Origin: a phage
Direction: 5' to 3' (one strand)
DNA: 64,000 nt
Sequence record: PZ452583.1
A model generated the notes under the pieces. The model worked only from the letters and a program-made list of their open reading frames with translations, had not been told where the DNA came from and did no database searches. This document shows positions 799-51,615 of the stretch, one piece after another; position 1 is the first letter of the stretch; every line of letters begins with the position of its first letter. The position numbers and the translations under genes are program-made.

Positions 799-828
799 AT
801 AGTACCATGGAAGAACAGTCTTGTAAAC
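799..828 (-). promoter_or_regulatory. T4 early-promoter-like element (GTTTAC -35-like, 18-nt spacer, TACTAT -10-like)
   Basis: Minus strand reads GTTTACAAGACTGTTCTTCCATGGTACTAT followed by GGAGG and the ATG at 770; one copy of a reiterated element. Confidence 0.45.
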
Positions 829-910
829 AGTTTTGTGAAAAAATTTTTAATGAATTCAAAGGGTCCAGAATCATCTATTTTTCCTAAGTATAGATTTATA
901 TTACTTGTAT

Positions 911-7300: not shown

Positions 7301-8983
7301 TTAAACCATTACAGTAAATCGACCAACTTTCTTCATTTGAAGATGCTGACCGTATGCTTGTGGGTCATGGTCTCTATGCGAAATAACAAAAACATTAGTA
7401 TTTTTTAAACTATCTAAAATAGTTGAAATAGCTTTTACACCTTCAACGTCGGTCGCTGAATCAAAAACTTCATCAAGAATTAGTGTGTTTATTTTAACAC
7501 CTGAAACTTTTTCAGCAATATCACGCCAAGTAAATAAAAGAGCAATATCAATTCGCGCTTTTTCACCTTGACTGAATGAAGCATAACTAAAATCTTCACG
7601 ACCACGGGATTTAATTGTCTCATTAAATTCTTCATCTAATGTAAACACATAATCCGCTTCCATTATTTTAAGATAATGGTTAATCTGCTTATTAAATAAT
7701 GGAATGTACTTTTTAATAATAGCACCTTTAATACCAGAATCTTTGAGCATATCAGTCAAAATTCCTCGGTGGTATTTTTCCATTACTAAATTAGTTTTTG
7801 TCTTAACAATTTTATCAAGTTCTTCTTGAAGCAGTGCTATTTCATCAGCATGGTCAATAAACTCAGAAGATGCTTTTTCTATAGCTGCTTTAACTTTTTT
7901 AGCTTTATCTACTGTCGTGATTAGAGATTGCTTTTTATTGCGAATATCATTTGCCAACGACTGCTGGGTTTTAATATTATCTCGGTATTCATCAACAAGA
8001 ACTTTTAAATTATCACGGTGTGTTGAAAGCTGTTCAAACGAATGCGTGCATTCAGAAACTTTATCTTTAATTTTAGAAACAACTTTATCACCGGAACTCA
8101 ATTGTGACAAACAGGTTGGACATAATCCACCTTCGTGATACATATTAATGACTTTATTATACGAGTCAATTTTTGATTTAATTAAAACTGCTTCTTGACC
8201 GATTTTATTAAATGCATCAGTCGGGTCTTCGTCTAAAACAATATTAACTAATCTTTCATTAGCTTCTTCTATTTCCGATTTTAGCGTTCTAGCTTCTTTT
8301 GCCAAATCATCATACATATTTTGCAGACGAGTAAGATTGTCACCCGTTAATTTTTTCTGGCGTTCAACGTTATCATTATATATTTTAATTTGTTGGATAA
8401 TACTATCTTTTTTAACATCAAGCACTTGGTTTTGTGAATTTAATTCACGTATTAGTGCTTTATTAAGCTTATCCATTTCAGCTAATGTTCCTACCTCAAG
8501 CAGGTCTTCCACAAGCTTTCTTCGTGCAGGGGTCGACAAACCCATGAAAGGGGTATACCCTGCTGTACCAAGGACAACAATCTGCTTGAAACTGGCATAT
8601 GACATTCCGATAAGCTGTTCAAATTCTGCTTGGAAATCTTTACTGCTGGCAGATTCATTAAGACGTGTACCGTTAACGGTGATTTCGAAAACGTTTGGTT
8701 TTTGTCCTCTTTTGATATAGTACTTTTTCTCATCATATTCCATCCACAGTTCAACTAAAAGTTCTTTCTTATTTGTGCTGTTTATTAATTGACCTTTCTT
8801 TACATCACGAAATGGTTTGCCAAAAAGCCCAAATGTGATGGCTTCTAACATAGTAGACTTACCACCGCCATTTCGGCCAGTAATAAGAGTTTTTTGAACC
8901 TTATCTAATTGAATGTCAATAGGATTTCCACCTACTGACATTATATTTTGATACCTAACTCGGTTTAATTTAAAATTCTTCAC
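7301..8983 (-). CDS. 46: Recombination endonuclease subunit gp46 (Rad50/SbcC-like ATPase)
   Basis: ORF track 560 aa (T4 size); Walker A GRNGGGKST; apparent GTG start overlapping the upstream stop. Confidence 0.9.
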   Translation of the reverse strand: MKNFKLNRVRYQNIMSVGGNPIDIQLDKVQKTLITGRNGGGKSTMLEAITFGLFGKPFRDVKKGQLINSTNKKELLVELWMEYDEKKYYIKRGQKPNVFEITVNGTRLNESASSKDFQAEFEQLIGMSYASFKQIVVLGTAGYTPFMGLSTPARRKLVEDLLEVGTLAEMDKLNKALIRELNSQNQVLDVKKDSIIQQIKIYNDNVERQKKLTGDNLTRLQNMYDDLAKEARTLKSEIEEANERLVNIVLDEDPTDAFNKIGQEAVLIKSKIDSYNKVINMYHEGGLCPTCLSQLSSGDKVVSKIKDKVSECTHSFEQLSTHRDNLKVLVDEYRDNIKTQQSLANDIRNKKQSLITTVDKAKKVKAAIEKASSEFIDHADEIALLQEELDKIVKTKTNLVMEKYHRGILTDMLKDSGIKGAIIKKYIPLFNKQINHYLKIMEADYVFTLDEEFNETIKSRGREDFSYASFSQGEKARIDIALLFTWRDIAEKVSGVKINTLILDEVFDSATDVEGVKAISTILDSLKNTNVFVISHRDHDPQAYGQHLQMKKVGRFTVMV

Positions 8984-9243
8984 AAAAGATTCCTTTTAAT
9001 GTATCTTTTAGACCATTCTATCATATCATCATAATCTAAAAAGTATTCATCAAATTCAGCCATGCAAACAACACCTTGTGCTGCTTTTGATGTGATATAA
9101 ATTATTCCAACATATCTAGAATCTTCTTCGGTATAATCAATATTTGCTATGAATTCATCATTAATGTCAAATGTCGAAAACTTCACAGTATGCATCCTTA
9201 ATACAAGATACAGCCATATCTTGTAATGATTTAGGTGTGTCAT
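8980..9243 (-). CDS. Hypothetical protein (T4 46.1 position)
   Basis: ORF track 87 aa; overlaps neighbour, start uncertain. Confidence 0.45.
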   Translation of the reverse strand: MTHLNHYKIWLYLVLRMHTVKFSTFDINDEFIANIDYTEEDSRYVGIIYITSKAAQGVVCMAEFDEYFLDYDDMIEWSKRYIKRNLL

Positions 9244-9430
9244 TATCTAAAATGTTGAAGTTAAAAGATACAGCCCAGTCAGTGCAGACCGTAACCTTTT
9301 TAATACAATTATCTTCAACCTCTAACGGTTCAAACCAATATTCAATAATTTCTTTATGACCAATATCATCTTTTACTTCGCATTCAAAATGCTGACTCAT
9401 CATAACATTTTTAAATTCATCAAAAGTCAT
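9167..9430 (-). CDS. Hypothetical protein (T4 46.2 position)
   Basis: ORF track 87 aa, co-directional between 47 and 46. Confidence 0.5.
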   Translation of the reverse strand: MTFDEFKNVMMSQHFECEVKDDIGHKEIIEYWFEPLEVEDNCIKKVTVCTDWAVSFNFNILDNDTPKSLQDMAVSCIKDAYCEVFDI

Positions 9431-10446
9431 TGTGTTGCCTCTACATATAGCTGGTTTGCATATTGAATAAGTGCTTCACGGTCAGAATCAGTGATGTCTG
9501 GAATTGCATTAATGTATTCTTCCATCAACGTCTGAAGAGATTGAACTTCAACTTCTTCACTGTCATCTGACTCGACAGAGTTATCAATCTTTGACACAAC
9601 TCGTAATGAATGCACAACTTTTTCTAGTTCAGATTCGAACTTCGTCAGATTTTTGTCTACTTCAGTTACTATAACACGTACTGATAGATTTGTAAAATCT
9701 TTATAGTCAATTTTTCCTTTAAATGGATAATGAATTCTACGATGCCAGGTAGTATTGTTTGGAATAAATTCCATTCGTTCTGTTTCTGTATCAAACATCC
9801 AGAACCCACGAGGGTCATTCTCGTCACCTGCAGTTAGTGTCCATGGTGTCCCAATATATCTGACGTTAGCAGCCTCAGAGATAGTATGGAAGTGACCAGA
9901 CCACACTTCTTTATAAGTCTTAAGGAAATCAGGTTCAAGACCATGAGATTTCATTCCTTTATAAAAATAAAATCCGTTCAGTTCCCAGTGACCAACGCAA
10001 AAAGAAGCAGATGAAGTTTTGATGTGTTCAAGAATTTCACCAGTATTTTCTTCACACATCCAAGGAATTAAATCAATTAAACATCCGTCAAAATCTACTG
10101 TAGTAGGCTTATCATATACTTTAACATTAGGATATTTAGCCAAAAGCTCAGTAGAGGCATTTGGATGCATTACATTTTTGTAGTGGAGATCGTGATTTCC
10201 TACAATAGTATGTAATGTGATTCCAGCATCATCAAGCATTTGAACTATTTCGCGAGCGAACTCCATAGTTTTATGCGTGATTGCTTTTCGCACATCAAAA
10301 ATATCGCCGTATTGAATCCATGTAGTAATTCCATTTTTCTTAGAATATTCTATTGCTTGTTTAATTCCATCAATTTGAATACCGCGAATCCACTCATCAT
10401 CAGCTTTAACGCCTAAATGCCAATCACCTAAATTTAAAATTTTCAT
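9427..10446 (-). CDS. 47: Recombination nuclease subunit gp47 (Mre11-like phosphoesterase)
   Basis: ORF track 339 aa (T4 size); phosphoesterase motifs GDWHLG and GNHD. Confidence 0.92.
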   Translation of the reverse strand: MKILNLGDWHLGVKADDEWIRGIQIDGIKQAIEYSKKNGITTWIQYGDIFDVRKAITHKTMEFAREIVQMLDDAGITLHTIVGNHDLHYKNVMHPNASTELLAKYPNVKVYDKPTTVDFDGCLIDLIPWMCEENTGEILEHIKTSSASFCVGHWELNGFYFYKGMKSHGLEPDFLKTYKEVWSGHFHTISEAANVRYIGTPWTLTAGDENDPRGFWMFDTETERMEFIPNNTTWHRRIHYPFKGKIDYKDFTNLSVRVIVTEVDKNLTKFESELEKVVHSLRVVSKIDNSVESDDSEEVEVQSLQTLMEEYINAIPDITDSDREALIQYANQLYVEATQ

Positions 10447-10622: not shown

Positions 10623-11825
10623 TTATTTTGTAATAATGTCAAACTGTTCTTTAAAGCAGAAGCTTGAATCTTGATGCTGATACAAAAATTCATAAGCTTT
10701 TTCGCGTTCACGGTCATAAAGAGTTCGGTCAGATGACAGTTCTTTAATACGCTCGAATGTTGATTCCATGTCATTTTCATCAAACCAAATGATACCGCTA
10801 TCATGCGAGGTCAAAGGAGTATTATCAACACGGAATTTTAAATTTTCGCCAGTAGATTTCCAAAATACCGGAATTGTTCCACATGCACCAAGCTCGAGAT
10901 GAGTATATTCTAAAGAACGTTGTAGATATTTTTTGTCCAACTTACTCAGCTGATAACCAAAACCGGATTTACTCATGCGTTCAAGCATTTCGCTATTTAC
11001 ATAACGGTCAAGAATTTGCGTTGGCAAATTAGGAGCAATTTTAATTTGGTCTACTTGATGAAGACGATAATACTCGTATGGAATTCCTTTTTCTTTAATA
11101 GGAATGAACGCTGGAGAACGTTCCAGACCTTCCATAATAGTACTTAGTCCTGCAGGTTTAAGATGTTTTTCATGAAAATCAAACATCTGATAAAAACCTT
11201 TCCATGTAGTCGTACGACCAATCCAACGGTTGATATTCATGTTAATTTCAGAAACATCTTTCCAGTAGGTTGACCGAACCTTCGCAATATCCATAGGAGG
11301 CTGAAAGTTATATACTGTCGGTGCTTCTTCAATATCATCAAACAGAGAAACTGTTTCAGGATACCATTCTTTCATCAGAACTTTATTAAAATCACCATTA
11401 TCAGAATGGCTAAAAATAACATCAGCTCGACGAACAGTTTCTTCTAATCCCAAATTTCGGCGCAAAGAAAGAGAAGAATGGTCATGTTGATAAACTACAA
11501 CACGAACAGAAGGTTTAATGTTATCAATAATTTTTTTATAGTTATTAATAGTGTCTTCTTCAACCGAAGTAGCAGGAACTGAATTGATAATTAGAATATC
11601 ACAATCATTTACCAGCTTAAGTGTTTTATCATATTCTTTTGCCAATAAAACCGGAATTGAAAATGATTTATAATCATGCGCGCAATTACGAGTAAATGAT
11701 TTATCTTTAGCATAAACCAAAGTTACTTCATGACCATTTTTAATAAACCAATCACGTTGCTCGAGTGAGAATTTTGTTACACCACAACCTTCAAGACCTC
11801 GAGCCATAAAAATACATACTTTCAT
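10623..11825 (-). CDS. a-gt: DNA alpha-glucosyltransferase
   Basis: ORF track 400 aa; N-terminus MKVCIFMARGLEGCGVTKFSLEQRDWFIKNGHEVTLVYAKDKSF closely matches T4 alpha-gt as recalled. Confidence 0.92.
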   Translation of the reverse strand: MKVCIFMARGLEGCGVTKFSLEQRDWFIKNGHEVTLVYAKDKSFTRNCAHDYKSFSIPVLLAKEYDKTLKLVNDCDILIINSVPATSVEEDTINNYKKIIDNIKPSVRVVVYQHDHSSLSLRRNLGLEETVRRADVIFSHSDNGDFNKVLMKEWYPETVSLFDDIEEAPTVYNFQPPMDIAKVRSTYWKDVSEINMNINRWIGRTTTWKGFYQMFDFHEKHLKPAGLSTIMEGLERSPAFIPIKEKGIPYEYYRLHQVDQIKIAPNLPTQILDRYVNSEMLERMSKSGFGYQLSKLDKKYLQRSLEYTHLELGACGTIPVFWKSTGENLKFRVDNTPLTSHDSGIIWFDENDMESTFERIKELSSDRTLYDREREKAYEFLYQHQDSSFCFKEQFDIITK

Positions 11826-15068: not shown

Positions 15069-15226
15069 ATCAAATCCTCAAAGGCAATTCATATGTTAAT
15101 AATACCACGGTTTGAACTTGTTGTAAACAACTTTGTGAAAATTATTTTAGGGAATGATAAGAAGGGAACGATAGCTTAGAATGGTAATATACAGAATGTA
15201 AGAAAGAAAGGCCCAGAAGGCCCGTC

Positions 15227-16165: not shown

Positions 16166-16636
16166 TTAATCATGTGTCCACACCCCATCGGTATTTGACC
16201 AAAGTCGCTGATTATCTGATCCTCGCCACAGCTTTTTGGTCGGAAGATTTTTCTCATACTTCCCATCAATAATAACATCAACATATTTAAGCATTTCTAG
16301 TTGTTTAATATCTTCAAACTTATATCCTGTCCACAACCAAATGCTTTTATTGGGATAAAGATTTTTAATAGTTTGAACCACAGAGTGAATCACGTCTCTG
16401 TTATCAGGATAAAGAGGGTCACCTCCGGTTATAGTTAATCCTTCTATATAATCATTATTCAAACATTCAATCAATTGTTCTAGTGTTTCACCAGTGAATG
16501 GAATACCATTTCTAGCATTCCATGTTGATTTATTATAACACCCTTCGCATTTATGCAAACAACCTGTAACGAAAAGAACGACCCTGCATCCAGGGCCATT
16601 CACAAAATCACAGGGATAAAATCTATCATAATTCAT
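16166..16636 (-). CDS. nrdG: Anaerobic ribonucleotide reductase activating protein (radical SAM)
   Basis: ORF track 156 aa (T4 size); CxxxCxxC motif CLHKCEGC. Confidence 0.9.
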   Translation of the reverse strand: MNYDRFYPCDFVNGPGCRVVLFVTGCLHKCEGCYNKSTWNARNGIPFTGETLEQLIECLNNDYIEGLTITGGDPLYPDNRDVIHSVVQTIKNLYPNKSIWLWTGYKFEDIKQLEMLKYVDVIIDGKYEKNLPTKKLWRGSDNQRLWSNTDGVWTHD

Positions 16637-18450
16637 TGGTGTTTAACCCTATGCATGATTTCTTTATTTTTACCGAGATTAAATCCGCGCTCGTTCGGAT
16701 TTCCCAAATAACCACATGTTCTTCTTATGGTATTCATCTTTTTAGGATCAGTTTCTCCACAAATAGAACAAACAAATCCGTTTTCAGTAGGAGTCATTTC
16801 ATGGGTACTTCCGCATGTAAAACACTTATCTACTGGCATGTTAACACCAAAATAATCTAAATGTTGTGCAGCATAATCCCACACGGCCTCAAGACCTTTT
16901 AAGTTATTTTTCATATCAGGAAGTTCAACATAAGAAATGTGACCACCTGTCGCAATGAAATGATATGGTGCTTCACGAGAAATCTTTTCAAACGGAGTAA
17001 CATTTTCTTCTACTGAAACGTGGAAACTGTTAGTGTACCAGCCTTTATCAGTAACATCCTTTACACTTCCATATTTTTCGGTATCAAGTTTACAGAAGCG
17101 ATAACACAAGTTTTCAGCAGGAGTAGAATACAAACTAAAAGCAAATCCGGTTCTTTCAGTCCATTGTTTAAGATGAGTATTCATTTTAGTTAAAATTTCT
17201 TGTCCAATATCACGACCGACAAGAATATTCAATTCGTGAATACCAATGTATCCTAGAGACACTGAACTTCTACCGTTTTTAAATAACTCAATTATGTCGC
17301 CATCAGGTTTAAGACGAACCCCGAATGCACCTTCTTGGTAAAGAATAGGAGCAACAGTTGCTTTAACTCCTTTTAAGGAACTAATTCTACACATCAAAGC
17401 TTCAAAACATAAATCCATTCGTTCATTGAACAATTCAACAAATTTCTGTTCATTGAATTGTGTTCCAATATAAGAATCTAACGCGATGCGAGGAAGATTC
17501 AATGTTACAACACCAAGATTATTACGTCCATCAAGAATTTCATTGCCAGTCGAATCTTTCCATACGCTCAAGAAACTACGGCAACCCATCGGAGAAACAG
17601 GAACAGATGAACCAGTGATAGCTTTATTGTTCTTAGCTGAAATAATATCAGGATACATCCTTTTGCTTGCACACTCTAGAGCAAGCTGCTTAATATCATA
17701 GTTCGGATCATCTTTATAAAGATTAACACCTTCTTCGACGAACATAACAAGCTTAGGGAAAATAGGAGTTATCCCATCACGACCGAGACCTTTAATACGA
17801 TTTTTCAGAATTGCTTTCTGAATCATTCGTTCAGTCCAGTCAGTTCCCGTACCAAATGTAATTGTTACAAAAGGAGTCTGTCCGTTTGAACTAAAGAGAG
17901 TATTTACTTCATATTCATACGCTTGGAATGCATCGTATACATCTTTTTCTGTTTTAGATTGAGCATAATTTAACGCATCAGCGATTTGCCATTTTTCTGC
18001 ATCCTCAATATGTTTTGCATAGGTGCGTTTAACATAAGGAGAAAGTACTTTATCTACATTAGCAAAAGTCGTTCCGCCATATTGATGGGAAGCAACTTGC
18101 GCAGTAATTTGTGCCATAATTGCAGTAGCAACACCGATTGATTTAGGAGTTTCAATCTGCGCATTACCAAGCTTAAATCCTTTCTCAAGCATTCCTTTTA
18201 AATCTACTAAACAACAATTAGTAAATGGAAGAGCAGGGGAATAATCAATATCGTGGAAATGGATAATTCCGCTTTCATGCGCTTTCATAATAAAAGACGG
18301 GACCATATTTTTGGCAATGTGTTTAGACACAATACCAGCCATAAGGTCCCGTTGAGTTGGAAAAACACGAGAATCTTTATTAGCATTCTCGTTTAAAAGG
18401 TCTTTATTAGTTTTATGAATCAATCCTTCAATTTCTTTTTCAATTGTCAT
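16633..18450 (-). CDS. nrdD: Anaerobic ribonucleoside-triphosphate reductase (glycyl radical enzyme), uninterrupted
   Basis: ORF track 605 aa continuous; C-terminal glycyl-radical motif RRTCGYLG. Confidence 0.95.
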   Translation of the reverse strand: MTIEKEIEGLIHKTNKDLLNENANKDSRVFPTQRDLMAGIVSKHIAKNMVPSFIMKAHESGIIHFHDIDYSPALPFTNCCLVDLKGMLEKGFKLGNAQIETPKSIGVATAIMAQITAQVASHQYGGTTFANVDKVLSPYVKRTYAKHIEDAEKWQIADALNYAQSKTEKDVYDAFQAYEYEVNTLFSSNGQTPFVTITFGTGTDWTERMIQKAILKNRIKGLGRDGITPIFPKLVMFVEEGVNLYKDDPNYDIKQLALECASKRMYPDIISAKNNKAITGSSVPVSPMGCRSFLSVWKDSTGNEILDGRNNLGVVTLNLPRIALDSYIGTQFNEQKFVELFNERMDLCFEALMCRISSLKGVKATVAPILYQEGAFGVRLKPDGDIIELFKNGRSSVSLGYIGIHELNILVGRDIGQEILTKMNTHLKQWTERTGFAFSLYSTPAENLCYRFCKLDTEKYGSVKDVTDKGWYTNSFHVSVEENVTPFEKISREAPYHFIATGGHISYVELPDMKNNLKGLEAVWDYAAQHLDYFGVNMPVDKCFTCGSTHEMTPTENGFVCSICGETDPKKMNTIRRTCGYLGNPNERGFNLGKNKEIMHRVKHQ

Positions 18451-27589: not shown

Positions 27590-27619
27590 ATAGTACCATA
27601 AAGCTTTATGCTTGTAAAC
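27590..27619 (-). promoter_or_regulatory. T4 early-promoter-like element
   Basis: Minus strand GTTTAC, 18-nt spacer, TACTAT, upstream of the ATPase gene start. Confidence 0.45.
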
Positions 27620-27640
27620 AACTTTGTGAAAAATTTTTGA

Positions 27641-37702: not shown

Positions 37703-38176
37703 TTATTTGAACGATTTAACGTACTGAATAGAACCCTTACTATTCACAAAGGCAATTTTACCATTTTTATTATACATGGTAGCAGTACGCTGATAACCAT
37801 AGGTTTGTTTACCAGATTGATAACCAACTAATGCAAAATTATCTTCACCCATTTTATTCTGTTTAGCGCGAATGCGTTCATGACCATGTGCCATAAGAAC
37901 CTTAGCATCACCAGTTGCAATGGATCGACGAGTTTTTTCATCTTCAACTGTATTAACAAAGTCGTCAAATGAATCAAATTTAGCATGAGATTTATTATAC
38001 AGTTTTCCATCTACTGCATAATTATATCCTTGTACATCCATCTCAACTTCTGTACCATCATCCAATACAGCAGTGATTTTTTGACCTTTTTTAAATTTCA
38101 AAAGATCAGTAAAAGATTCAGCAATAATTTGAGAATTAATAGCTGCTTCAGTAATAAATTCTTGATATGTTTTCAT
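37703..38176 (-). CDS. Internal-protein-like (capsid-targeting sequence) protein
   Basis: ORF track 157 aa; N-terminus MKTYQEFITEA nearly identical to the T4 IPIII capsid-targeting sequence MKTYQEFIAE, with an I-T-E gp21-type cleavage motif; AAAGGAAA Shine-Dalgarno. Confidence 0.65.
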   Translation of the reverse strand: MKTYQEFITEAAINSQIIAESFTDLLKFKKGQKITAVLDDGTEVEMDVQGYNYAVDGKLYNKSHAKFDSFDDFVNTVEDEKTRRSIATGDAKVLMAHGHERIRAKQNKMGEDNFALVGYQSGKQTYGYQRTATMYNKNGKIAFVNSKGSIQYVKSFK

Positions 38177-38185
38177 GGGTTTCCT

Positions 38186-38602
38186 TTAAATGTAAATATT
38201 TTTACCGTAATACTTATACCAATGTGGTTTCATTAAAATTTTTTCATCAAGTCGTTGTTGACTCAATTTAATAGCTGATTTGCATGGATTATAATCATTT
38301 TTCCATTCTACTGGAATATCGCTGATGTCAGGAACTTCAGTATCTTTTATACTGAACCCGCGTTTTAAGCATTCCGTTATAATGTCTAATTGACGCTTTC
38401 GCAAAAATTCTAACTTATCGTAAAAGAACGTAACATGACCAGAACCTAAAATAAACTCGGAAGATATTTTAAAATCTTTAACGCGCTTACCGTTTGCCAC
38501 ATGCTTACGAACTATACCAAAAACACGCGGCAATTCACGGTATTCTGCGATTAAATGTTGATCAGCAAGTTCAGATACTAAAGTCAAATTAATACGAGTC
38601 AT
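38186..38602 (-). CDS. denV: Endonuclease V (pyrimidine-dimer DNA glycosylase)
   Basis: ORF track 138 aa; N-terminus [29 protein letters not shown] matches T4 endo V as recalled. Confidence 0.92.
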
Positions 38603-38661: not shown

Positions 38662-39630
<969 letters not shown>

Positions 39631-44273: not shown

Positions 44274-44349
44274 TGGTCGAGGCAGTAGGGATCGAACCTA
44301 CGACCTAGGACTTAGAAGGTCCTTGCTCTTCCTTCTGAGCTATGCCCCG
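44274..44349 (-). tRNA. tRNA-Arg (anticodon UCU)
   Basis: Hand-folded cloverleaf from reverse complement: T-arm GUAGG-UUCGAUC-CCUAC, anticodon loop CUUCUAA, encoded CCA. Confidence 0.8.
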
Positions 44350-44353
44350 TAAT

Positions 44354-44429
44354 TGGGGTGACCGATGGGAGTCGAACCCATGACTACGAGAATCACAATC
44401 TCGAGTTCTACCAACTGAACTACGGCCAC
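44354..44429 (-). tRNA. tRNA-His (anticodon GUG)
   Basis: Hand-folded: acceptor GUGGCCG/CGGUCAC, D-stem GUUC/GAAC, anticodon stem CGAGA/UCUCG with loop UUGUGAU, T-arm AUGGG-UUCGACU-CCCAU, discriminator C, CCA; no encoded G-1. Confidence 0.65.
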
Positions 44430-44543
44430 ATTAATATCTACTCCAACAATCATGATGTCTTCACACGAAATTAAGAGAAGAGTGATCAGTTAAACCCTTA
44501 TAATCGCGTCAAGTAGATATTAATGTGACAGTTGTCACAAATT

Positions 44544-44618
44544 TGGCGGACGTGATAGGATTCGAACCTATAACCAATCGCTTAACAGGCGATCGCTCTG
44601 CCATTGAGCTACACATCC
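44544..44618 (-). tRNA. tRNA-Asn (anticodon GUU)
   Basis: Hand-folded: acceptor GGAUGUG/CACGUCC, anticodon stem AUCGC/GCGAU with loop CUGUUAA, T-loop UUCGAAU, CCA. Confidence 0.7.
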
Positions 44619-44622
44619 AAAT

Positions 44623-44709
44623 TGGTGGGGAGTGGTGGAGTCGAACCACCCGAGTCGCAATGACAATGAATTTACAGTCCACACCGCTACCTCTACGGGA
44701 TAACTCCCC
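44623..44709 (-). tRNA. tRNA-Tyr (anticodon GUA), type II with long variable arm
   Basis: Hand-folded: acceptor GGGGAGU/ACUCCCC, anticodon loop CUGUAAA, variable arm hairpin, T-arm GGUGG-UUCGACU-CCACC, CCA; anticodon stem has two G-U pairs. Confidence 0.6.
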
Positions 44710-44721
44710 TAATTCATAATT

Positions 44722-44796
44722 TGGTGGCCCTGGGTGGAATTGAACCACCATCTGGCGATTATGAGTCGCTTGCTTGAACCTTCCAGCTACAGGGCC
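44722..44796 (-). tRNA. tRNA with CAU anticodon (Ile by analogy to T4 tRNA-Ile; Met by anticodon alone)
   Basis: Hand-folded: acceptor GGCCCUG/CAGGGCC, anticodon loop CUCAUAA, T-arm GGUGG-UUCAAUU-CCACC, CCA. Confidence 0.7.
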
Positions 44797-44797
44797 T

Positions 44798-44873
44798 TGG
44801 TGCTGATTGACGGAATCGAACCGCCGACCTTCTCATTACAAGTGAGTTGCTCTACCTACTGAGCTAAATCAGC
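44798..44873 (-). tRNA. tRNA-Thr (anticodon UGU)
   Basis: Hand-folded: acceptor GCUGAUU/AAUCAGC, D-stem GCUC/GAGC, anticodon loop CUUGUAA, T-loop UUCGAUU, CCA. Confidence 0.75.
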
Positions 44874-44878
44874 AAAAC

Positions 44879-44968
44879 TGGCGGAGGCGATAGGATTTGA
44901 ACCTATGAGTCGCCGGAGCGACTGCCGGTTTTCAAGACCGGTGCATTAAACCACTCTGCCACGCCTCC
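44879..44968 (-). tRNA. tRNA-Ser (anticodon UGA), type II
   Basis: Hand-folded: acceptor GGAGGCG/CGCCUCC, anticodon stem CCGGU/ACCGG with loop CUUGAAA, long variable arm, T-loop UUCAAAU, CCA. Confidence 0.75.
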
Positions 44969-44970
44969 AG

Positions 44971-45044
44971 TCTCCATACAAGGATTTGAACCTTGGACCT
45001 CCTGATCCCAAATCAGGCGCTCTACCAAACTGAGCTACACGGAG
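44971..45044 (-). tRNA. tRNA-Pro (anticodon UGG), CCA not encoded
   Basis: Hand-folded: anticodon stem CCUGA/UCAGG with loop UUUGGGA, T-arm CAAGG-UUCAAAU-CCUUG; 3' end abuts tRNA-Ser (Pro-Ser dimeric arrangement as in T4). Confidence 0.75.
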
Positions 45045-45054
45045 TAAATTAAAT

Positions 45055-45128
<74 letters not shown>

Positions 45129-45133
45129 AAATT

Positions 45134-45220
45134 TGGTGCGAGAAGTGGGACTCGAACCCACAAGGAAATCATTCCGCAGCATTTTAAGTGCTGTGCCTTT
45201 ACCAATTTGACCATTCTCGC
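45134..45220 (-). tRNA. tRNA-Leu (anticodon UAA), type II
   Basis: Hand-folded: acceptor GCGAGAA/UUCUCGC, anticodon stem CAGCA/UGCUG with loop CUUAAAA, long variable arm, T-arm GUGGG-UUCGAGU-CCCAC, CCA. Confidence 0.75.
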
Positions 45221-45226
45221 GTTATA

Positions 45227-45835
45227 TTATTTATTACGTGAAAAAGACTGTTCTATCAATTCTGGACACTTTCGTTCTATCCATTTTCTAGCTTTTTGTG
45301 GGCTTATACCTATTATTTTAGCAGCTTTACTAACCCATCCAAATTTAGAATAATCGATTTTAACTAATTCTTCGTAAATTTCATTAGTTAAAATCTTTTC
45401 ATTAATATTTACCAGTAAATGATATAATTTGTTATCATTAGCAATTTTAATGAATCTTTTATAGTTTCCGCCTTTACTTAAACCTAATGAAGTAATTGCA
45501 GATGATATAGTAGCCGAATTTAATAATGCGTTTAAAATTTCTTCATCACTAACATTATAACGCTTTTTATTATTTTTAATATTTTTACCAGCAAAAGTAT
45601 CAGTTTGCGAATGACAGTTTGGACATAATAATCTTAAATTTGATTTAAGATGATTTTTGTTATTTCCATCAATATGGTCTAATTGCAGAACAATATGCTT
45701 ATTTTGCCATTTTGAAATTTTACAAATTGCACACTCATATGGAAAAATATTTTCTTTTATTATTTTGTCTTTCAGCTTTCCTGTACTAAAATTTGGATGT
45801 TTTCCTTCAAAAATTTCAGCTAATTTAGTATCCAT
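45227..45835 (-). CDS. HNH homing-endonuclease-like protein (free-standing, adjacent to tRNA array)
   Basis: Track ORF 45227..45859 (TTG); supported start ATG 45835..45833 (MDTKLAEIF); HNH core LDHIDGNNKNHLKSNLRLLCPNCH with paired Cys (CAIC...CPNC). Confidence 0.7.
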   Translation of the reverse strand: MDTKLAEIFEGKHPNFSTGKLKDKIIKENIFPYECAICKISKWQNKHIVLQLDHIDGNNKNHLKSNLRLLCPNCHSQTDTFAGKNIKNNKKRYNVSDEEILNALLNSATISSAITSLGLSKGGNYKRFIKIANDNKLYHLLVNINEKILTNEIYEELVKIDYSKFGWVSKAAKIIGISPQKARKWIERKCPELIEQSFSRNK

Positions 45836-45934
45836 AATATGATTCCCAATTATTAACAAAGGCTCTCAAATAAGAACCCTTGATGATAGAGGGTATTAAT
45901 CAGTGCGGTATGAGTTAATAATAACAAATAATTC

Positions 45935-46450
45935 TTAAAGCAAATCAACCATTTTAACAGTCGGCAAAACAATTTCTTCTTCGATATAAGCAAATTCTAC
46001 ATGTTCAACTACACGCAAGAAATCATATTCATAGTATTCAGAAGCATGACCAAGAATATCAATGAGGCCTTCAGATATCTTATTACCATTCACAAAGAAT
46101 AAATCAAATACACGTTCTTCATCTTCTTCGGATTTATTACCAAGGTCAACTTCTATATCAAAGACCTTTTTAATGAATTCTGGATAAAGTTGGTCTGAGA
46201 ACAGTCCTTCAACCAAATATTCATATATAAAAAGCTCTTGCTCGCTGAACAACCCATTACCACAATAACGGTCAGCTTTAGTGCTAGAATGACGACTCTT
46301 AAACTTCTTCAAAAGATATTTAAATTGTTGGAGCTCATGCTCTTCTACGCCAAACAGTGTTTTGGTTTTATAGTTATCACCATCATTTTCCCAGGTAGTG
46401 ACATCAATTACGTAACCCTTAGGAATTGTGCTGCCTAAACGAATATTCAT
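45935..46450 (-). CDS. Hypothetical protein
   Basis: ORF track 171 aa. Confidence 0.55.
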   Translation of the reverse strand: MNIRLGSTIPKGYVIDVTTWENDGDNYKTKTLFGVEEHELQQFKYLLKKFKSRHSSTKADRYCGNGLFSEQELFIYEYLVEGLFSDQLYPEFIKKVFDIEVDLGNKSEEDEERVFDLFFVNGNKISEGLIDILGHASEYYEYDFLRVVEHVEFAYIEEEIVLPTVKMVDLL

Positions 46451-46746
46451 TTGCTCACCATATTAATGTAAGTATATTCAATACATTCAAGACCCAAAGG
46501 ATTCTTGAAAATATCATATTCAAGAGGACCTTTTTCTGTTTCAATAAAGAAATCAAAATTTACTGTATTAAATTTACGGTCTTCCTTCACTAATTTAACT
46601 TGAGAAGATGAACGGTCAACATAAACCTTTTCAACTTCAAAACACGTTAAAACGCCATAATCATCAATCAAGGCTTTAGCCGCGTCTTGATCATATTTAT
46701 ATCCATTTTCAATGGATGATACTTTTGCATAAAGAATCATTATCAC
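46447..46746 (-). CDS. Hypothetical protein
   Basis: ORF track 99 aa. Confidence 0.5.
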   Translation of the reverse strand: MIMILYAKVSSIENGYKYDQDAAKALIDDYGVLTCFEVEKVYVDRSSSQVKLVKEDRKFNTVNFDFFIETEKGPLEYDIFKNPLGLECIEYTYINMVSK

Positions 46747-47123
46747 ACTCCGTAGTCTATCTTGACCAATCTACCTTTGTAGTAGCCAAAGTTCTTTGGA
46801 AAGGCATCATACTCAAAGAAATCACGGTCAAGCGTTCTACATTCATCACCATCAACATCATTATAGAGCTTTTGCAAATCAGATTTAAAAAGCTCCTTAT
46901 CCTCAACTGGCTCTGCTTTGTGCATCACAACCATGAGACCAAATCTGTTTGAGTATGCTATTGGGCATAGGTGCTTGTTATCATACCCCTTCCACTGACC
47001 TTCTGTAAGATTGCTGAGCATACCCTGCACGAAGTATTTCCATGTCTTGGGGATAGGGAACTTAATAGCATACTTACGTGTTAGTAGTACCCATCTGGTT
47101 CCACCCGATTTAATTAATTTCAT
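46743..47123 (-). CDS. Hypothetical protein
   Basis: ORF track 126 aa. Confidence 0.5.
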   Translation of the reverse strand: MKLIKSGGTRWVLLTRKYAIKFPIPKTWKYFVQGMLSNLTEGQWKGYDNKHLCPIAYSNRFGLMVVMHKAEPVEDKELFKSDLQKLYNDVDGDECRTLDRDFFEYDAFPKNFGYYKGRLVKIDYGV

Positions 47124-47197: not shown

Positions 47198-47608
47198 TCA
47201 GCCTCTATCAACGATAGCATGAGTATGGGCATTTACGATTTGCCACCAGTCGAAACGATTGGAACCATAATCTGGTTTATTTTCATTTTCTTTAATGATA
47301 TCACGCAGCTTATCTTCTGTTTCAGCATACGCAATTAAATCATCATATCCACCGCAAGGATAATAATTATCACCTGCGAATAAAAGAAAATTTACCTTAG
47401 ATGGATTTACGTAATAATGGTCTTTAGGATATTTAGTTCCTCTCCAATCAGTTACTTCAACATAACGGTAAGAAAATCCATTTTTACTTTCAATCCAACT
47501 CCACGCTTCAAAAGGAGTATTAAAAACTTTATCAGGTATTAAATTACCTTCAAAATGAGAAGGATTTGCATAATCCCCGGCATAAACATAATATTCGTTA
47601 ATACTCAT
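47198..47608 (-). CDS. Hypothetical protein
   Basis: ORF track 136 aa. Confidence 0.55.
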   Translation of the reverse strand: MSINEYYVYAGDYANPSHFEGNLIPDKVFNTPFEAWSWIESKNGFSYRYVEVTDWRGTKYPKDHYYVNPSKVNFLLFAGDNYYPCGGYDDLIAYAETEDKLRDIIKENENKPDYGSNRFDWWQIVNAHTHAIVDRG

Positions 47609-47794
47609 TTATTCACCTTTAGAAATTTTATCCATAACGATAGCGATTAAACCAATTAAAAATGCTACTACAAGCGAAAACACATTTTCTGCTGTAGTTA
47701 ATAATCCGCATATAAATCCAACAAACATTGAAAAACTAAAAGCGGAAGCAGAAATTGCAATAGCAACATTTCGAATTAATTCACAACGTTTCAT
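47609..47794 (-). CDS. Hypothetical small membrane protein
   Basis: Track ORF 47609..47854 reads through a promoter; supported start ATG 47794..47792 (MKRCELIRN) after GAGGAG; hydrophobic helix FSMFVGFICGLL...VVAFLIGLIAIV. Confidence 0.5.
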   Translation of the reverse strand: MKRCELIRNVAIAISASAFSFSMFVGFICGLLTTAENVFSLVVAFLIGLIAIVMDKISKGE

Positions 47795-47822
47795 TTTATT
47801 CTCCTCAGTAGTTGATAGGGTA

Positions 47823-47852
47823 ATAGTATCACTACTAAAACCCCGTGTAAAC
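47823..47852 (-). promoter_or_regulatory. T4 early-promoter-like element
   Basis: Minus strand GTTTAC, 18-nt spacer, TACTAT. Confidence 0.45.
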
Positions 47853-47864
47853 AACTTTGTGAAA

Positions 47865-48122
47865 TTATTTTAAATCTTCTAATCGTTTCTTCATCTTAGA
47901 ACCATTTTTAGCGATTTCTCCTGCGTCAGAGCATAATGCTAAAAGTGCTTTAACTTTAGTTTGGTCTCCTTTAAAAGACGAAGGATCGACTGCAGCAGCA
48001 AGTTCTTTAATACGAGAGAAAAGACGCTCAGCTTCAGCTAAAGCCATTCCAAGCTTTACTTCCATACCATGAGAAGATTCAGTGATAATAGTTTCTGTAG
48101 CAAACTCTTTATAAGTTTTCAT
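47865..48122 (-). CDS. Internal-protein-like (capsid-targeting sequence) protein at the T4 ipI position
   Basis: ORF track 85 aa; N-terminus MKTYKEFATETIITE fits the CTS pattern; immediately downstream (in transcription) of 57B as ipI is in T4. Confidence 0.6.
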   Translation of the reverse strand: MKTYKEFATETIITESSHGMEVKLGMALAEAERLFSRIKELAAAVDPSSFKGDQTKVKALLALCSDAGEIAKNGSKMKKRLEDLK

Positions 48123-48153
48123 TTTATTTTTCCTAATTAATTTTGATGAGGTA

Positions 48154-48183
48154 ATAGTATCACTACCTCATCAGTGTGTAAAC
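48154..48183 (-). promoter_or_regulatory. T4 early-promoter-like element upstream of the ipI-position gene
   Basis: Minus strand GTTTAC, 18-nt spacer, TACTAT. Confidence 0.45.
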
Positions 48184-48195
48184 AACTTTGTGAAA

Positions 48196-48892
<697 letters not shown>

Positions 48893-48893
<1 letters not shown>

Positions 48894-49618
48894 TATAGTA
48901 CCTTTAGTGTATTTTTAATTTTAGAAAAAAGTTCTTCAAGAGAACCATCGTTTGTAATTACTAAATCGCCATCACGAATTGGCAATCCAGCTTCTGTAAT
49001 ATGTGTATCATTGGATTTTTGACCAGGACGAACTACATGAATTACTGTAGCACCCATCGCCCTAGCCGCATCCATTTCATGATCTTGACGAGTATCAGGA
49101 ACGATATAATAATCATAACCTGAGTTAAATTTATCAAGATAATCTAAAGCAAATAATTTTACCCAGTACATGCGGTCGAAGTTATTAACAATCAAATCCG
49201 TACCTAGGGCTTGCATCAGACGACGGACTGACCATTGATCTTCAATATTATTTATAACGTCAATAATCTTGTTAAATGCTACGGAATTAACTGATTCTTG
49301 TCCTTCGTCATCAAAAACAAACACACCTTTAATCGGGCTTTTACCATTAAGATAGCAAAATGCTTGTTCCATAATCGTGATTACTTCTAATTTAGTCAGA
49401 TTTAAATTAGTCTCACGATCATAGTCAATTCCTTCAAACTCTTTACGAGTTAAGCAAGGATAGTCAGTGTTTGCTGCAAATACTCCCCATGCATAAGCCA
49501 ATGCATCCTTAATAGGACCAGCAAGTTGGTATTTAACTGCAGAATAATTGCTCATGATAAAATCAGCAGTAGTATCTTTTCCACTACGCTTTACACCGCT
49601 TAAAAAGATTAGTTTCAT
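48893..49618 (-). CDS. 1: Deoxynucleoside monophosphate kinase gp1
   Basis: Track ORF 48893..49657; supported start ATG 49618..49616 (MKLIFLSGVKRSGKDT, 241 aa) after GAGGAGAAAC; P-loop GVKRSGKDT. Confidence 0.9.
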
Positions 49619-51607: not shown

Positions 51608-51615
51608 TATTTATA
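51608..51615 (-). promoter_or_regulatory. Late-promoter octamer TATAAATA for gene 4 (divergent)
   Basis: Plus-strand tatttata at 51608..51615, about 27 nt upstream of the gene 4 ATG. Confidence 0.55.

What the first reader, a model, noticed from the sequence alone, without database searches (positions are those of the whole stretch)
47865..48183. ipI-position gene encodes a divergent 85-aa capsid-targeting protein with its own early-type promoter
ORF 47865..48122 begins MKTYKEFATETIITE (CTS pattern) and sits next to 57B where T4 has ipI, whose product inhibits the GmrS/GmrD type IV restriction enzyme. It is preceded by a GTTTAC / 18-nt spacer / TACTAT element. If the mature protein differs from T4 IPI, it may target a different host nuclease.
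Basis: partly seen in the sequence, partly recalled or inferred. Interest (0 to 1): 0.5.

Follow-up and report, generated by a model that had tools for sequence, protein, structure and literature searches.

The report
Known T-even internal protein Ip5 cassette
This is the already named ip5 gene of T2/T6-type phages: a small protein predicted to be packed into the phage head and injected with the DNA, sitting as a swappable cassette where T4 carries its nuclease inhibitor ipI. Its target is unknown, but public transposon data point to a defence present in E. coli CFT073.

Summary
An 85-aa ORF lies on the minus strand at 47865..48122, next to 57B, and begins with a capsid-targeting sequence. A GTTTAC/18 nt/TACTAT early-type promoter precedes it.

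It is not a divergent IPI. It is Ip5, an unrelated protein that shares only the propeptide. PP01, RB51 and wV7 annotate it as ip5. Its mature 70 aa are 100% identical in at least 232 phage records, including T6 and RB32. The predicted fold is all-helical (pLDDT 91.9) with no PDB match, whereas IPI* is alpha/beta.

The gene is one cassette in a variable array bounded by repeated promoter/stem-loop elements. This was described by Repoila 1994.

The target is unknown. T2 and T6 carry Ip5 yet are restricted by three characterised GmrSD enzymes. ip4-10 gave no reproducible inhibition of other GmrSD variants.

There is a new lead from published HIDEN-SEQ tables. Disrupting the identical gene in phage Bas37 lowers fitness about 4-fold in UPEC CFT073 only. 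CFT073 encodes GmrSD-family genes.

The most likely mechanism is packaging, gp21 cleavage after ITE15, injection, and inhibition of a host-specific, probably type IV, nuclease. Verdict: already known, moderate-to-low interest.

The parts
47865..48122 (-). ip5 coding sequence (85 aa plus stop)
   Evidence: ORF list and sequence. 99.2% DNA identity to PP01, where it is annotated ip5. Full-length match to PHROG 3499 'internal head protein', E 3.7e-50. Purifying selection.
48078..48122 (-). Predicted capsid-targeting propeptide, codons 1-15 (MKTYKEFATETIITE), with predicted gp21 cleavage after I-T-E15
   Evidence: It aligns to the T4 IPI propeptide, whose cleavage after ITE19 is fixed by PDB 2JUB starting at residue 20. 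Tyr4 and Phe7 are kept, as is an L/I-X-E motif (rules in PMC9026906). The DK-13 allele has a 10-aa propeptide ending ITE directly before the same SSHGMEV. Cleavage itself was not tested.
47868..48077 (-). Predicted mature Ip5* (70 aa, 7.5 kDa, pI 9.2)
   Evidence: 100% identical in at least 232 phage records. AF2 on a 4-sequence alignment gives pLDDT 91.9 and pTM 0.73, with helices 2-29, 39-48 and 52-68. No PDB fold match (best E 3.9). Mass and pI.
48131..48134 (-). Shine-Dalgarno AGGA, 8 nt before the ATG
   Evidence: Read from the sequence. Conserved in T4 and PP01.
48154..48183 (-). T4-early-type promoter: GTTTAC (48183-48178), 18-nt spacer, TGn (48162-48160), TACTAT (48159-48154)
   Evidence: Conserved with T4 upstream of ipI. 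The UP/-35/TGn/-10 architecture of T4 early promoters is described in PMC2988021. Activity was not tested.
48144..48173 (-). Inverted repeat (10-nt exact arms, 13-bp stem when folded) overlapping the promoter spacer and -10
   Evidence: the repeat finder pair I10. RNA fold dG -18.7 kcal/mol, z -3.98. It would form only in transcripts reading through from 57B.
48143..48211 (-). Upstream copy of the 69-nt direct repeat: last codons of 57B (..DLK-TAA), A/T-rich region, promoter and stem-loop
   Evidence: Repeat family D1, 86% identity. Sequence.
47812..47880 (-). Downstream copy of the 69-nt repeat: last codons of ip5 (..DLK-TAA) plus the promoter of trna.4 (GTTTAC 47852-47847, TACTAT 47828-47823)
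   Evidence: Conserved with T4.
48196..48651 (-). Flanking gene 57B, an Acb1 anti-CBASS phosphodiesterase (context; left boundary of the IP locus)
   Evidence: Pfam PF23474 Acb1, E 3.3e-60. Synteny with T4 and PP01.
47609..47794 (-). Flanking gene trna.4, a 61-aa predicted membrane protein (context; right boundary of the IP locus)
   Evidence: PHROG 1692, E 6e-35. Annotated trna.4 in PP01 and T4.

Best explanation
The gene is ip5, one of the interchangeable 'internal protein' cassettes of T-even phages. Each step of the proposed mechanism is marked as shown or inferred.

1. Transcription comes from the gene's own T4-early-type promoter (motif shown, activity inferred). Late in infection it probably also comes from read-through of upstream late transcripts (inferred).
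2. The 85-aa precursor is directed into the prohead scaffolding core by its N-terminal capsid-targeting sequence MKTYKEF... (inferred from conservation of the residues that matter in T4 IPIII).
3. The prohead protease gp21 cuts after I-T-E15 and releases a 70-aa, basic, all-helical Ip5* (cleavage site inferred; fold predicted).
4. Ip5* is injected with the glucosyl-hmC DNA and neutralises a host-strain-specific defence by direct binding (inferred by analogy with Ip1, Ip2, Ip3 and Bas37_0260).

The target is not any of the three characterised GmrSD enzymes. The best current lead is a defence present in uropathogenic E. coli CFT073. The GmrSD-family type IV nucleases of its immigration-control region are the prime candidates.

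The locus itself evolves by recombination between the repeated promoter/stem-loop units, which add, delete or swap whole IP genes.
For: Identity:
- 99.2% to PP01 ip5.
- PHROG 3499, full length.
- Mature region identical in T6, RB32, RB3 and Bas37.

CTS:
- Tyr4, Phe7 and I-T-E are kept, matching the experimentally defined rules.
- The cleavage site of IPI is verified by 2JUB.
- The DK-13 allele keeps ITE|SSHG with a shorter propeptide.

Cassette nature:
- Flanks are conserved with T4 while the body is unrelated.
- A 69-nt repeat sits on both sides.
- The same locus holds ip5 alone (window, PP01, pSs-1), ip5+ip7 (T2), ip5 plus a 77-aa IP (T6, Bas37), ip5+ip9+ip7 (RB32) or ip5+ipI (RB3).
- A 51-54% paralogue sits in the other IP locus in about 226 records.
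- The literature agrees.

Anti-defence role of the class:
- Ip1, Ip2 and Ip3 each block one GmrSD variant.
- The neighbour of Ip5 in Bas37 blocks McrBC.

Ip5 itself:
- It is under strong purifying selection.
- It is dispensable on K-12: 18 of 18 TA sites were hit.
- Transposon disruption lowers fitness in CFT073 (mean 263.4 to 61.0, log2FC -2.09, adjusted p shown as 0.00000). There is no effect in CFE299, CFE303, CFE331 or CFE336 (-0.01, -0.01, -0.13, +0.26).

Candidate target and substrate:
- CFT073 carries an intact 550-aa GmrSD_N+GmrSD_C gene and a split one.
- The intact allele is in 620 of 5426 complete E. coli genomes.
- The window encodes alpha-glucosyltransferase, so the phage DNA is a GmrSD-type substrate.
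Against: - I found no virion proteomics for Ip5, so packaging and cleavage rest on sequence analogy.
- ip4-10 expressed in trans gave no reproducible inhibition of the GmrSD variants tested. That their 'ip5' is this protein rests on the name only.
- T2 and T6 carry Ip5 and are still restricted by GmrSD of CT596, ECOR17 and ECOR21.
- The CFT073 signal is about 4-fold, seen in one host, from a pooled screen. It has not been confirmed by a clean deletion and the authors do not discuss it.
- The link to the CFT073 GmrSD genes is circumstantial: I did not show that the other four isolates lack them.
- The fold gives no functional clue.
Confidence: 0.7

Rival explanations
1. Ip5 is an injected anti-defence protein, but its target is not a GmrSD-family enzyme. 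It could be another CFT073-specific system, for example a DNA glycosylase of the Brig type, a type III R-M or BREX remnant, or an unrecognised system.
For: ip4-10 were negative against the active GmrSD variants tested. Its locus neighbour in Bas37 targets McrBC, not GmrSD, so IP targets are not confined to GmrSD. Other modification-directed defences against T-even DNA exist. CFT073 has a type III R-M and other defence remnants near the same region.
Against: All four IPs with known targets inhibit type IV restriction nucleases. CFT073 does carry GmrSD-family genes that K-12 lacks.
Confidence: 0.25
2. Ip5 has mainly a structural or DNA-charge-neutralising role in the head, or helps head assembly as IPIII does. 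It has no specific host target.
For: It is small and basic (pI 9.2) like other IPs. IPIII mutants show a head-assembly defect.
Against: Disruption has no cost on K-12: 18 of 18 TA sites were hit and mean counts are typical of non-essential genes. The only effect is host-specific. The gene is present or absent among close relatives, which does not fit a structural need.
Confidence: 0.07
3. The protein is not packaged. It acts only as an early-expressed cytoplasmic protein, and the CTS-like N-terminus is a relic of cassette recombination.
For: It has its own strong early-type promoter. The recombination junction lies inside the propeptide, which exists in two variants differing at 3 codons while the mature part is invariant. 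IPIII without its CTS works when supplied in the host.
Against: Both propeptide variants keep Tyr/Phe4, Phe7 and the I-T-E site. A defence that cuts incoming DNA must be met before any phage gene is expressed.
Confidence: 0.06
4. The CFT073 signal in the HIDEN-SEQ table is a polar or technical artefact and says nothing about Ip5.
For: It comes from a pooled screen with only 17 TA sites. The upstream gene 57B is also depleted in the same host (-1.56), so the locus as a whole may respond. The authors do not follow it up.
Against: The downstream genes 0260 and 0259 show no depletion in CFT073 (309.3 and 1025.6), so polarity on them is excluded. The same K-12 control gives log2FC of about 0 in four other hosts. 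The adjusted p is below 1e-5.
Confidence: 0.2

Closest known systems
Ip5 of T2, T6, RB15, RB32, RB70, PP01 and Bas37 (bas37_0261); PHROG 3499
   Same: It is the same protein. The whole protein is identical to PP01, and the mature 70 aa are identical to T6, RB32, RB3 and Bas37. It has the same position next to 57B.
   Different: The window and PP01 carry the propeptide variant MKTYKEFATETIITE instead of MKTFKEFATKTTITE (3 codons). Here ip5 is the only gene in the locus.
T4 IPI / IPI* (Pfam PF11634, PDB 2JUB), inhibitor of GmrSD from E. coli CT596
   Same: Same locus, same promoter/stem-loop and RBS, and a homologous propeptide with an I-T-E cleavage site. Similar size and charge after processing (7.5 vs 8.0 kDa, pI 9.2 vs 9.0).
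   Different: The mature parts share no detectable sequence similarity. The fold is all-helical rather than two beta-sheets flanked by helices. It does not replace IPI functionally: T2 with Ip5 is restricted by CT596 GmrSD and rescued by IPI*.
Bas37_0260 (the 77-aa internal protein also present in T6), inhibitor of McrBC
   Same: It is a CTS-bearing cassette in the same locus, directly downstream of ip5 in Bas37 and T6. Its function was found by the same kind of host-specific fitness signal.
   Different: The mature sequence is unrelated. It is absent from this window. Its requirement is on K-12, whereas Ip5's is on CFT073.
T4 Ip2 and Ip3, inhibitors of GmrSD from ECOR21 and ECOR17
   Same: Same class: CTS, injected, and one inhibitor per nuclease variant.
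   Different: They lie in the other IP locus and are unrelated in sequence. T2 and T6 carrying Ip5 remain sensitive to both enzymes.
PeSL promoter-early/stem-loop shuffling cassettes (Arbiol 2010; Comeau 2014)
   Same: A repeated early promoter plus stem-loop flanks variable genes and marks the recombination boundaries.
   Different: The authors themselves class the IP-locus elements as analogues, not homologues. They are T4-early-type promoters with weaker, A/T-rich stems lacking polyG/polyC, which is what is seen here.

Membership tests
Ip5 family (PHROG 3499) | Full-length sequence similarity to named Ip5 proteins | tested here: met
   PHROG 3499 E 3.7e-50, residues 1-85 of 85. Identical to PP01 Ip5. 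Mature part identical to T6 and RB32 Ip5.
T-even internal proteins (CTS-bearing, gp21-processed, injected) | N-terminal capsid-targeting sequence with the key residues 4 and 7 | tested here: met
   MKTYKEF has Tyr4 and Phe7, as in IPIII MKTYQEF. Rules from PMC9026906. Alignment to IPI.
T-even internal proteins (CTS-bearing, gp21-processed, injected) | gp21 cleavage motif L/I-X-E at the end of a 10-19 residue propeptide | tested here: met
   I-T-E at residues 13-15, aligned with the verified I-T-E19 of IPI. The motif is kept in the DK-13 allele directly before SSHG. Only the motif was tested, not cleavage.
T-even internal proteins (CTS-bearing, gp21-processed, injected) | Encoded in one of the two IP loci (57B-trna.4 or e-denV region) | tested here: met
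   It lies between 57B and trna.4.
T-even internal proteins (CTS-bearing, gp21-processed, injected) | Physically present in the virion in processed form and ejected into the host | not testable with these tools
   No virion proteome mentioning Ip5 was found.
T4 IPI (Pfam PF11634 IPI_T4) | Sequence similarity of the mature region to IPI* | tested here: not met
   BLASTP aligns residues 1-22 only. There is no PF11634 hit at E<=1 for Ip5, against 7.3e-54 for IPI.
T4 IPI (Pfam PF11634 IPI_T4) | Compact alpha/beta fold (two beta-sheets flanked by helices, PDB 2JUB) | tested here: not met
   The AF2 model of mature Ip5 is all-helical, pLDDT 91.9. 2JUB is not among the Foldseek PDB matches. The IPI* fold is as described in PMC3012670.
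T4 IPI (Pfam PF11634 IPI_T4) | Protects against GmrSD of E. coli CT596 | tested here: not met
   From the literature, not my own test. T2, which carries Ip5 and Ip7, does not grow on CT596 GmrSD and is rescued by IPI* (PMC4437046 Table 3).
PeSL cassettes sensu Arbiol 2010 | Early promoter combined with a stem-loop, repeated at the borders of variable genes | tested here: met
PeSL cassettes sensu Arbiol 2010 | Sigma-70-like promoter with G/C-rich (polyG/polyC) stem; sequence homology to RB49/phi1 PeSLs | tested here: not met
   The stem TGATGAGGTA/TACCTCATCA is A/T-rich. The authors state that IP-locus elements are analogues only.

The most novel reading that the evidence does not exclude
Ip5* is a new, all-helical type of injected inhibitor. 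Its cognate target is the immigration-control-region GmrSD of the CFT073 type, an allele present in about 11% of complete E. coli genomes. If so, the most widespread IP allele of T2/T6-like phages would match one of the most widespread GmrSD alleles of extraintestinal E. coli.
Probability: 0.3. Interest if true: 0.55.

Novelty: already known. Interest (0 to 1): 0.3.

Why it matters
Internal proteins are the first phage molecules to meet host immunity, and they set host range in T4-like phages used for therapy and biocontrol. Only four of the more than ten named IPs have a known target.

Ip5 is about as common as T4 IPI: about 269 phage records carry it at 90% identity or more, against about 280 for IPI. 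It is carried by T2, T6 and the O157 phages PP01, AR1 and wV7. Knowing its target would therefore explain part of the host range of a large group of phages.

Nothing in this window itself is new. The useful outcome is a concrete, cheap experiment: an ip5 deletion plated on CFT073 with and without its GmrSD genes. This follows from connecting the gene to an undiscussed row in a public data table.

Tried and rejected
- Sequence families. Pfam gave no family for Ip5. A sequence search of PDB found nothing below E 0.5. Two database-wide protein searches found only T-even phage relatives: 5 proteins in one and 3 clusters in the other. No distant homology can therefore be used.
- Fold searches. The full-length single-sequence model gave only generic helical hairpins, such as the LSD1 tower and designed hairpins, in PDB and BFVD. 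The better model of the mature protein matched nothing (best E 3.9). I rejected any functional reading of these hits.
- Structure prediction. I repeated the prediction without it.
- Was Ip5 the newly reported McrBC inhibitor of Bas37? No. The genome shows that inhibitor is bas37_0260, the 77-aa neighbour, and Ip5 is bas37_0261.
- Papers not held. I could not read Repoila 1994, Bair 2007, Rifat 2008 or Miller 2003. What I say about them comes from papers that cite them.
- Literature searches. Searches for virion proteomics of Ip5 phages led nowhere, and a search for 'Ip5' by name mostly returned inositol-phosphate papers.
- Silas et al. supplements. I could not confirm the sequence of their 'ip5' construct there.

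Full report
**1. The observation**

The ORF 47865..48122 exists but lies on the minus strand. It has an ATG start and 85 codons and reads MKTYKEFATETIITESSHGMEVKLG...LEDLK. It sits directly downstream of 57B (48196..48651) and upstream of trna.4 (47609..47794). This is the gene order in which T4 has ipI.

On the minus strand GTTTAC occupies 48183-48178 and TACTAT 48159-48154, with 18 nt between them. A TG two bases before the -10 gives an extended -10. This is the UP/-35/TGn/-10 layout described for T4 early promoters (PMC2988021).

The two hexamers alone are not significant: the region has 14 sigma-70-like sites against 12.4 +/- 3.7 in shuffles. Other results show the element is real:
- The 20-mer around the -35 occurs five times in the window against 0.03 expected.
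- A 69-nt copy at 86% identity precedes the next gene.
- The element is almost invariant between this window, PP01 and T4, although the coding body that follows is unrelated.
- A 13-bp stem-loop overlaps the spacer and the -10 (dG -18.7 kcal/mol, z -3.98).

**2. What the gene is**

Positions 47600-48700 are 99.2% identical to phage PP01. There, and in RB51, wV7, T2 and others, the ORF is annotated ip5, 'Ip5 internal head protein'.

- It matches PHROG 3499 over its whole length (E 3.7e-50) and no Pfam family.
- The predicted mature 70 residues are 100% identical in at least 232 phage records, including T6, RB32, RB3 and Bas37, and 98.6% identical in T2.
- For comparison, mature T4 IPI is found at 90% identity or more in 280 records. 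Ip5 is therefore an equally common alternative, not a rare variant.
- An exhaustive HMMER scan of 1.84 billion representative proteins found only three clusters. The family is confined to T-even phages.

**3. Relation to T4 IPI**

Only the first ~22 residues, the propeptide, align (12 of 26 identities).
- IPI hits Pfam IPI_T4 at 7e-54 and Ip5 does not hit it.
- PDB 2JUB covers IPI residues 20-95, which fixes its cleavage after I-T-E19.
- AlphaFold2 on a four-sequence alignment predicts mature Ip5 as three helices (2-29, 39-48, 52-68) with pLDDT 91.9 and pTM 0.73.
- IPI* is two beta-sheets flanked by helices (PMC3012670).
- Foldseek finds no solved structure resembling mature Ip5 (best E 3.9). 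The full-length model matches only generic helical hairpins.

So this is not a 'divergent IPI'. It is a different protein behind a shared propeptide. After processing the two are alike only in size and charge: 7.5 kDa and pI 9.2 against 8.0 kDa and pI 9.0.

**4. Capsid targeting and processing (inferred)**

In T4 the propeptides are 10-19 residues long. Targeting depends mainly on residues 4 and 7, processing depends on residues 8 and 10, and gp21 cuts after L/I-X-E (PMC9026906).

Ip5 has Tyr4, Phe7 and I-T-E at residues 13-15, aligned with the verified I-T-E of IPI. The Gaprivervirus DK-13 allele has a shorter propeptide, MKTYQTFITE, followed directly by the same SSHGMEVKLG. This supports cleavage between Glu15 and Ser16.

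I found no virion proteomics for Ip5. Packaging is therefore an inference.

**5. It is a functional gene**

Among Tequatrovirus alleles the mature region differs at 6-7 synonymous and 0 non-synonymous codons. Against DK-13 the counts are 34 synonymous and 7 non-synonymous.

The propeptide exists in two versions that differ at three codons, all non-synonymous: MKTYKEFATETIITE here and in PP01, and MKTFKEFATKTTITE in T6, T2, the RB phages and Bas37. This fits recombination junctions lying inside the propeptide.

**6. Cassette architecture**

The T4/window alignment shows near-identity through the end of 57B, the promoter/stem-loop, the RBS and the first codons. Similarity is then lost across the body, and near-identity returns at the next promoter.

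The 69-nt repeat includes the last codons of both upstream genes. 57B and ip5 both end ...D-L-K-TAA.

Related phages carry different loads between the same flanks:

| Phages | Genes in the locus |
|---|---|
| window, PP01, pSs-1 | ip5 alone |
| T2 | ip5 + ip7 |
| T6, Bas37 | ip5 + a 77-aa IP |
| RB32 | ip5 + ip9 + ip7 |
| RB3 | ip5 + ipI |
| DK-13 | five small genes |

The RB32 annotator notes that Ip5 'replaces ipI' and that the Ip9/Ip7 pair is flanked by '43 bp direct repeats'. A 51-54% paralogue of Ip5 sits in the other IP locus, between e and denV, in Kha5h and about 226 records.

This is the polymorphism reported by Repoila et al. 1994, as summarised by Arbiol 2010 and Comeau 2014. Those authors call the IP-associated elements analogues of PeSLs.

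**7. Function: what is known**

T4 Ip1, Ip2 and Ip3 each inhibit one GmrSD variant, with no cross-protection (PMC12373910).

Evidence bearing on Ip5:
- The same study tested ip4-10 against further GmrSD variants and found no reproducible interaction. That their ip5 is this protein rests on the name; I could not find the sequence.
- T2, which carries Ip5 and Ip7, is restricted by CT596 GmrSD and rescued by IPI* (PMC4437046 Table 3).
- T2 and T6 are restricted by the ECOR17 and ECOR21 enzymes.

Ip5 therefore does not neutralise any of the three characterised GmrSDs.

**8. Function: a new lead**

The HIDEN-SEQ preprint (bioRxiv 10.1101/2025.11.20.689424) reports that bas37_0260, 'at the ipI locus' of phage Bas37, is a McrBC inhibitor.

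I fetched Bas37 (KarlGJung, MZ501089). Its locus is 57B - bas37_0261 - bas37_0260 - trna.4. Gene 0261 is Ip5, with a mature part identical to the window's. Gene 0260 is the unrelated 77-aa IP also found in T6. So Ip5 is not the McrBC inhibitor.

The paper's supplementary table gives Ip5 its own phenotype. It is non-essential on K-12, with 18 of 18 TA sites hit.

| Host compared with K-12 | log2FC for bas37_0261 (Ip5) |
|---|---|
| CFT073 | -2.09 (mean 263.4 to 61.0; adjusted p printed as 0.00000; one of 14 significant genes) |
| CFE299 | -0.01 |
| CFE303 | -0.01 |
| CFE331 | -0.13 |
| CFE336 | +0.26 |

Polarity on the downstream genes is excluded, because 0260 and 0259 are not depleted in CFT073. 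The authors do not comment on this row.

**9. A candidate target**

CFT073 is listed among strains whose mcrBC is replaced by a gmrSD homologue, c5421 (PMC4437046). In the RefSeq record I find two loci in the immigration-control region:
- A split GmrSD (an N-domain pseudogene plus a GmrSD_C/DUF5655 gene) at the mcrBC position.
- An intact 550-aa GmrSD_N+GmrSD_C gene at the mrr position.

The intact allele occurs in 620 of 5426 complete E. coli genomes. The window encodes alpha-glucosyltransferase, so the phage DNA is the kind of substrate these enzymes attack.

The link between Ip5 and these genes is circumstantial. I could not check whether the four unaffected isolates lack them.

**10. Expression**

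The promoter predicts early synthesis, but packaging needs late synthesis. TATAAATA late-promoter motifs lie upstream on the same strand at 49249-49256 (inside gene 1) and 51608-51615. Read-through is therefore plausible.

In CFT073, insertions in 57B, just upstream, are also depleted (-1.56). This could reflect such read-through or the function of Acb1 itself.

**11. Verdict**

The gene, its class and the cassette mechanism are already described.

The remaining open question is the target of Ip5. It becomes directly testable with the CFT073 lead.

My confidence:
- About 0.9 that it is a CTS-targeted internal protein.
- About 0.7 that it is an anti-defence factor.
- About 0.3-0.45 that the target is a GmrSD-family enzyme of the CFT073 type.

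Noticed in passing
window 48196..48651 (-): The neighbour '57B', often annotated as hypothetical protein or RNA ligase, is a full-length Acb1 anti-CBASS phosphodiesterase (Pfam PF23474, E 3.3e-60). The IP locus thus abuts another anti-defence gene. In Bas37 its disruption is also depleted in CFT073 (log2FC -1.56).
   Followed up: partly
window 37703..38176 (-): This is the only other ORF in the window with a capsid-targeting N-terminus (MKTYQEFITE|AAINS..., 157 aa, Pfam DUF7412; the 'Ip4/ipIV' type), downstream of denV. Nothing lies between e (38662..39156) and denV (38186..38602). The phage's whole IP repertoire in both loci therefore appears to be Ip4 plus Ip5, with no homologue of the McrBC inhibitor Bas37_0260.
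   Followed up: partly
window 47865-47880 and 48196-48211: 57B and ip5 both end with the same codons ...D-L-K-TAA, which are part of the 69-nt direct repeat. The recombination module therefore reaches into the 3' end of the coding sequences and may dictate the C-terminal residues of whatever gene is inserted.
   Followed up: no
window 822-841, 15122-15141, 27613-27632 (all - strand): There are three further copies (1-3 mismatches) of the promoter core TTTCACAAAGTTGTTTACA elsewhere in the window, against 0.03 expected. They are probably other early promoters of the same subfamily and possible recombination partners.
   Followed up: no
window 44274-45220, 45227..45859 (-), 45935..47123 (-): There is a cluster of ten tRNA genes (Arg, His, Asn, Tyr, Met/Ile-CAT, Thr, Ser, Pro, Gly, Leu). 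It is followed by a 210-aa ORF with a weak HNH motif, at the position of Bas37's 'putative homing endonuclease'. Three ORFs (171, 99 and 126 aa) without any Pfam family then sit where T4 and PP01 have trna.2. This is a second variable stretch right next to the IP locus.
   Followed up: partly
window 49249-49256 and 51608-51615 (- strand motif TATAAATA): T4 late-promoter consensus motifs lie upstream of 57A (inside gene 1) and upstream of gene 4. They could supply the late transcripts needed to make Ip5 for packaging.
   Followed up: no
L010 (RB32) 1484-1756; literature table in PMC4437046: RB15 lacks IPI yet grows on CT596 GmrSD, while T2 (Ip5+Ip7) does not. According to the RB32 annotation, RB15 carries Ip5, Ip7 and Ip9. 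Ip9 is therefore a candidate second inhibitor of the CT596 enzyme, unless RB15 differs in glucosylation.
   Followed up: no
L013 (E. coli CFT073) 7679-9772 and 16396-18048: The CFT073 immigration-control region holds two GmrSD-family loci flanking a type I R-M system. One is split (an N-domain pseudogene plus GmrSD_C fused to DUF5655) and one is intact (550 aa). The intact allele is in 620 of 5426 complete E. coli genomes.
   Followed up: partly
L005 (Kha5h) 2438-2719: A 93-aa paralogue of Ip5 (51-54% identity, own CTS MKTYSEFLSESILNE) sits in the other IP locus, between e and denV, in about 226 phage records. The Ip5 fold has therefore diversified and moved between the two loci.
   Followed up: partly
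window 10623..11825 (-): DNA alpha-glucosyltransferase (Pfam AGT, E 4e-237). The window starts inside the DNA polymerase region, so the second glucosyltransferase (beta or beta-alpha type, next to gene 42) lies outside it and the sugar pattern of this phage cannot be read from the window.
   Followed up: no
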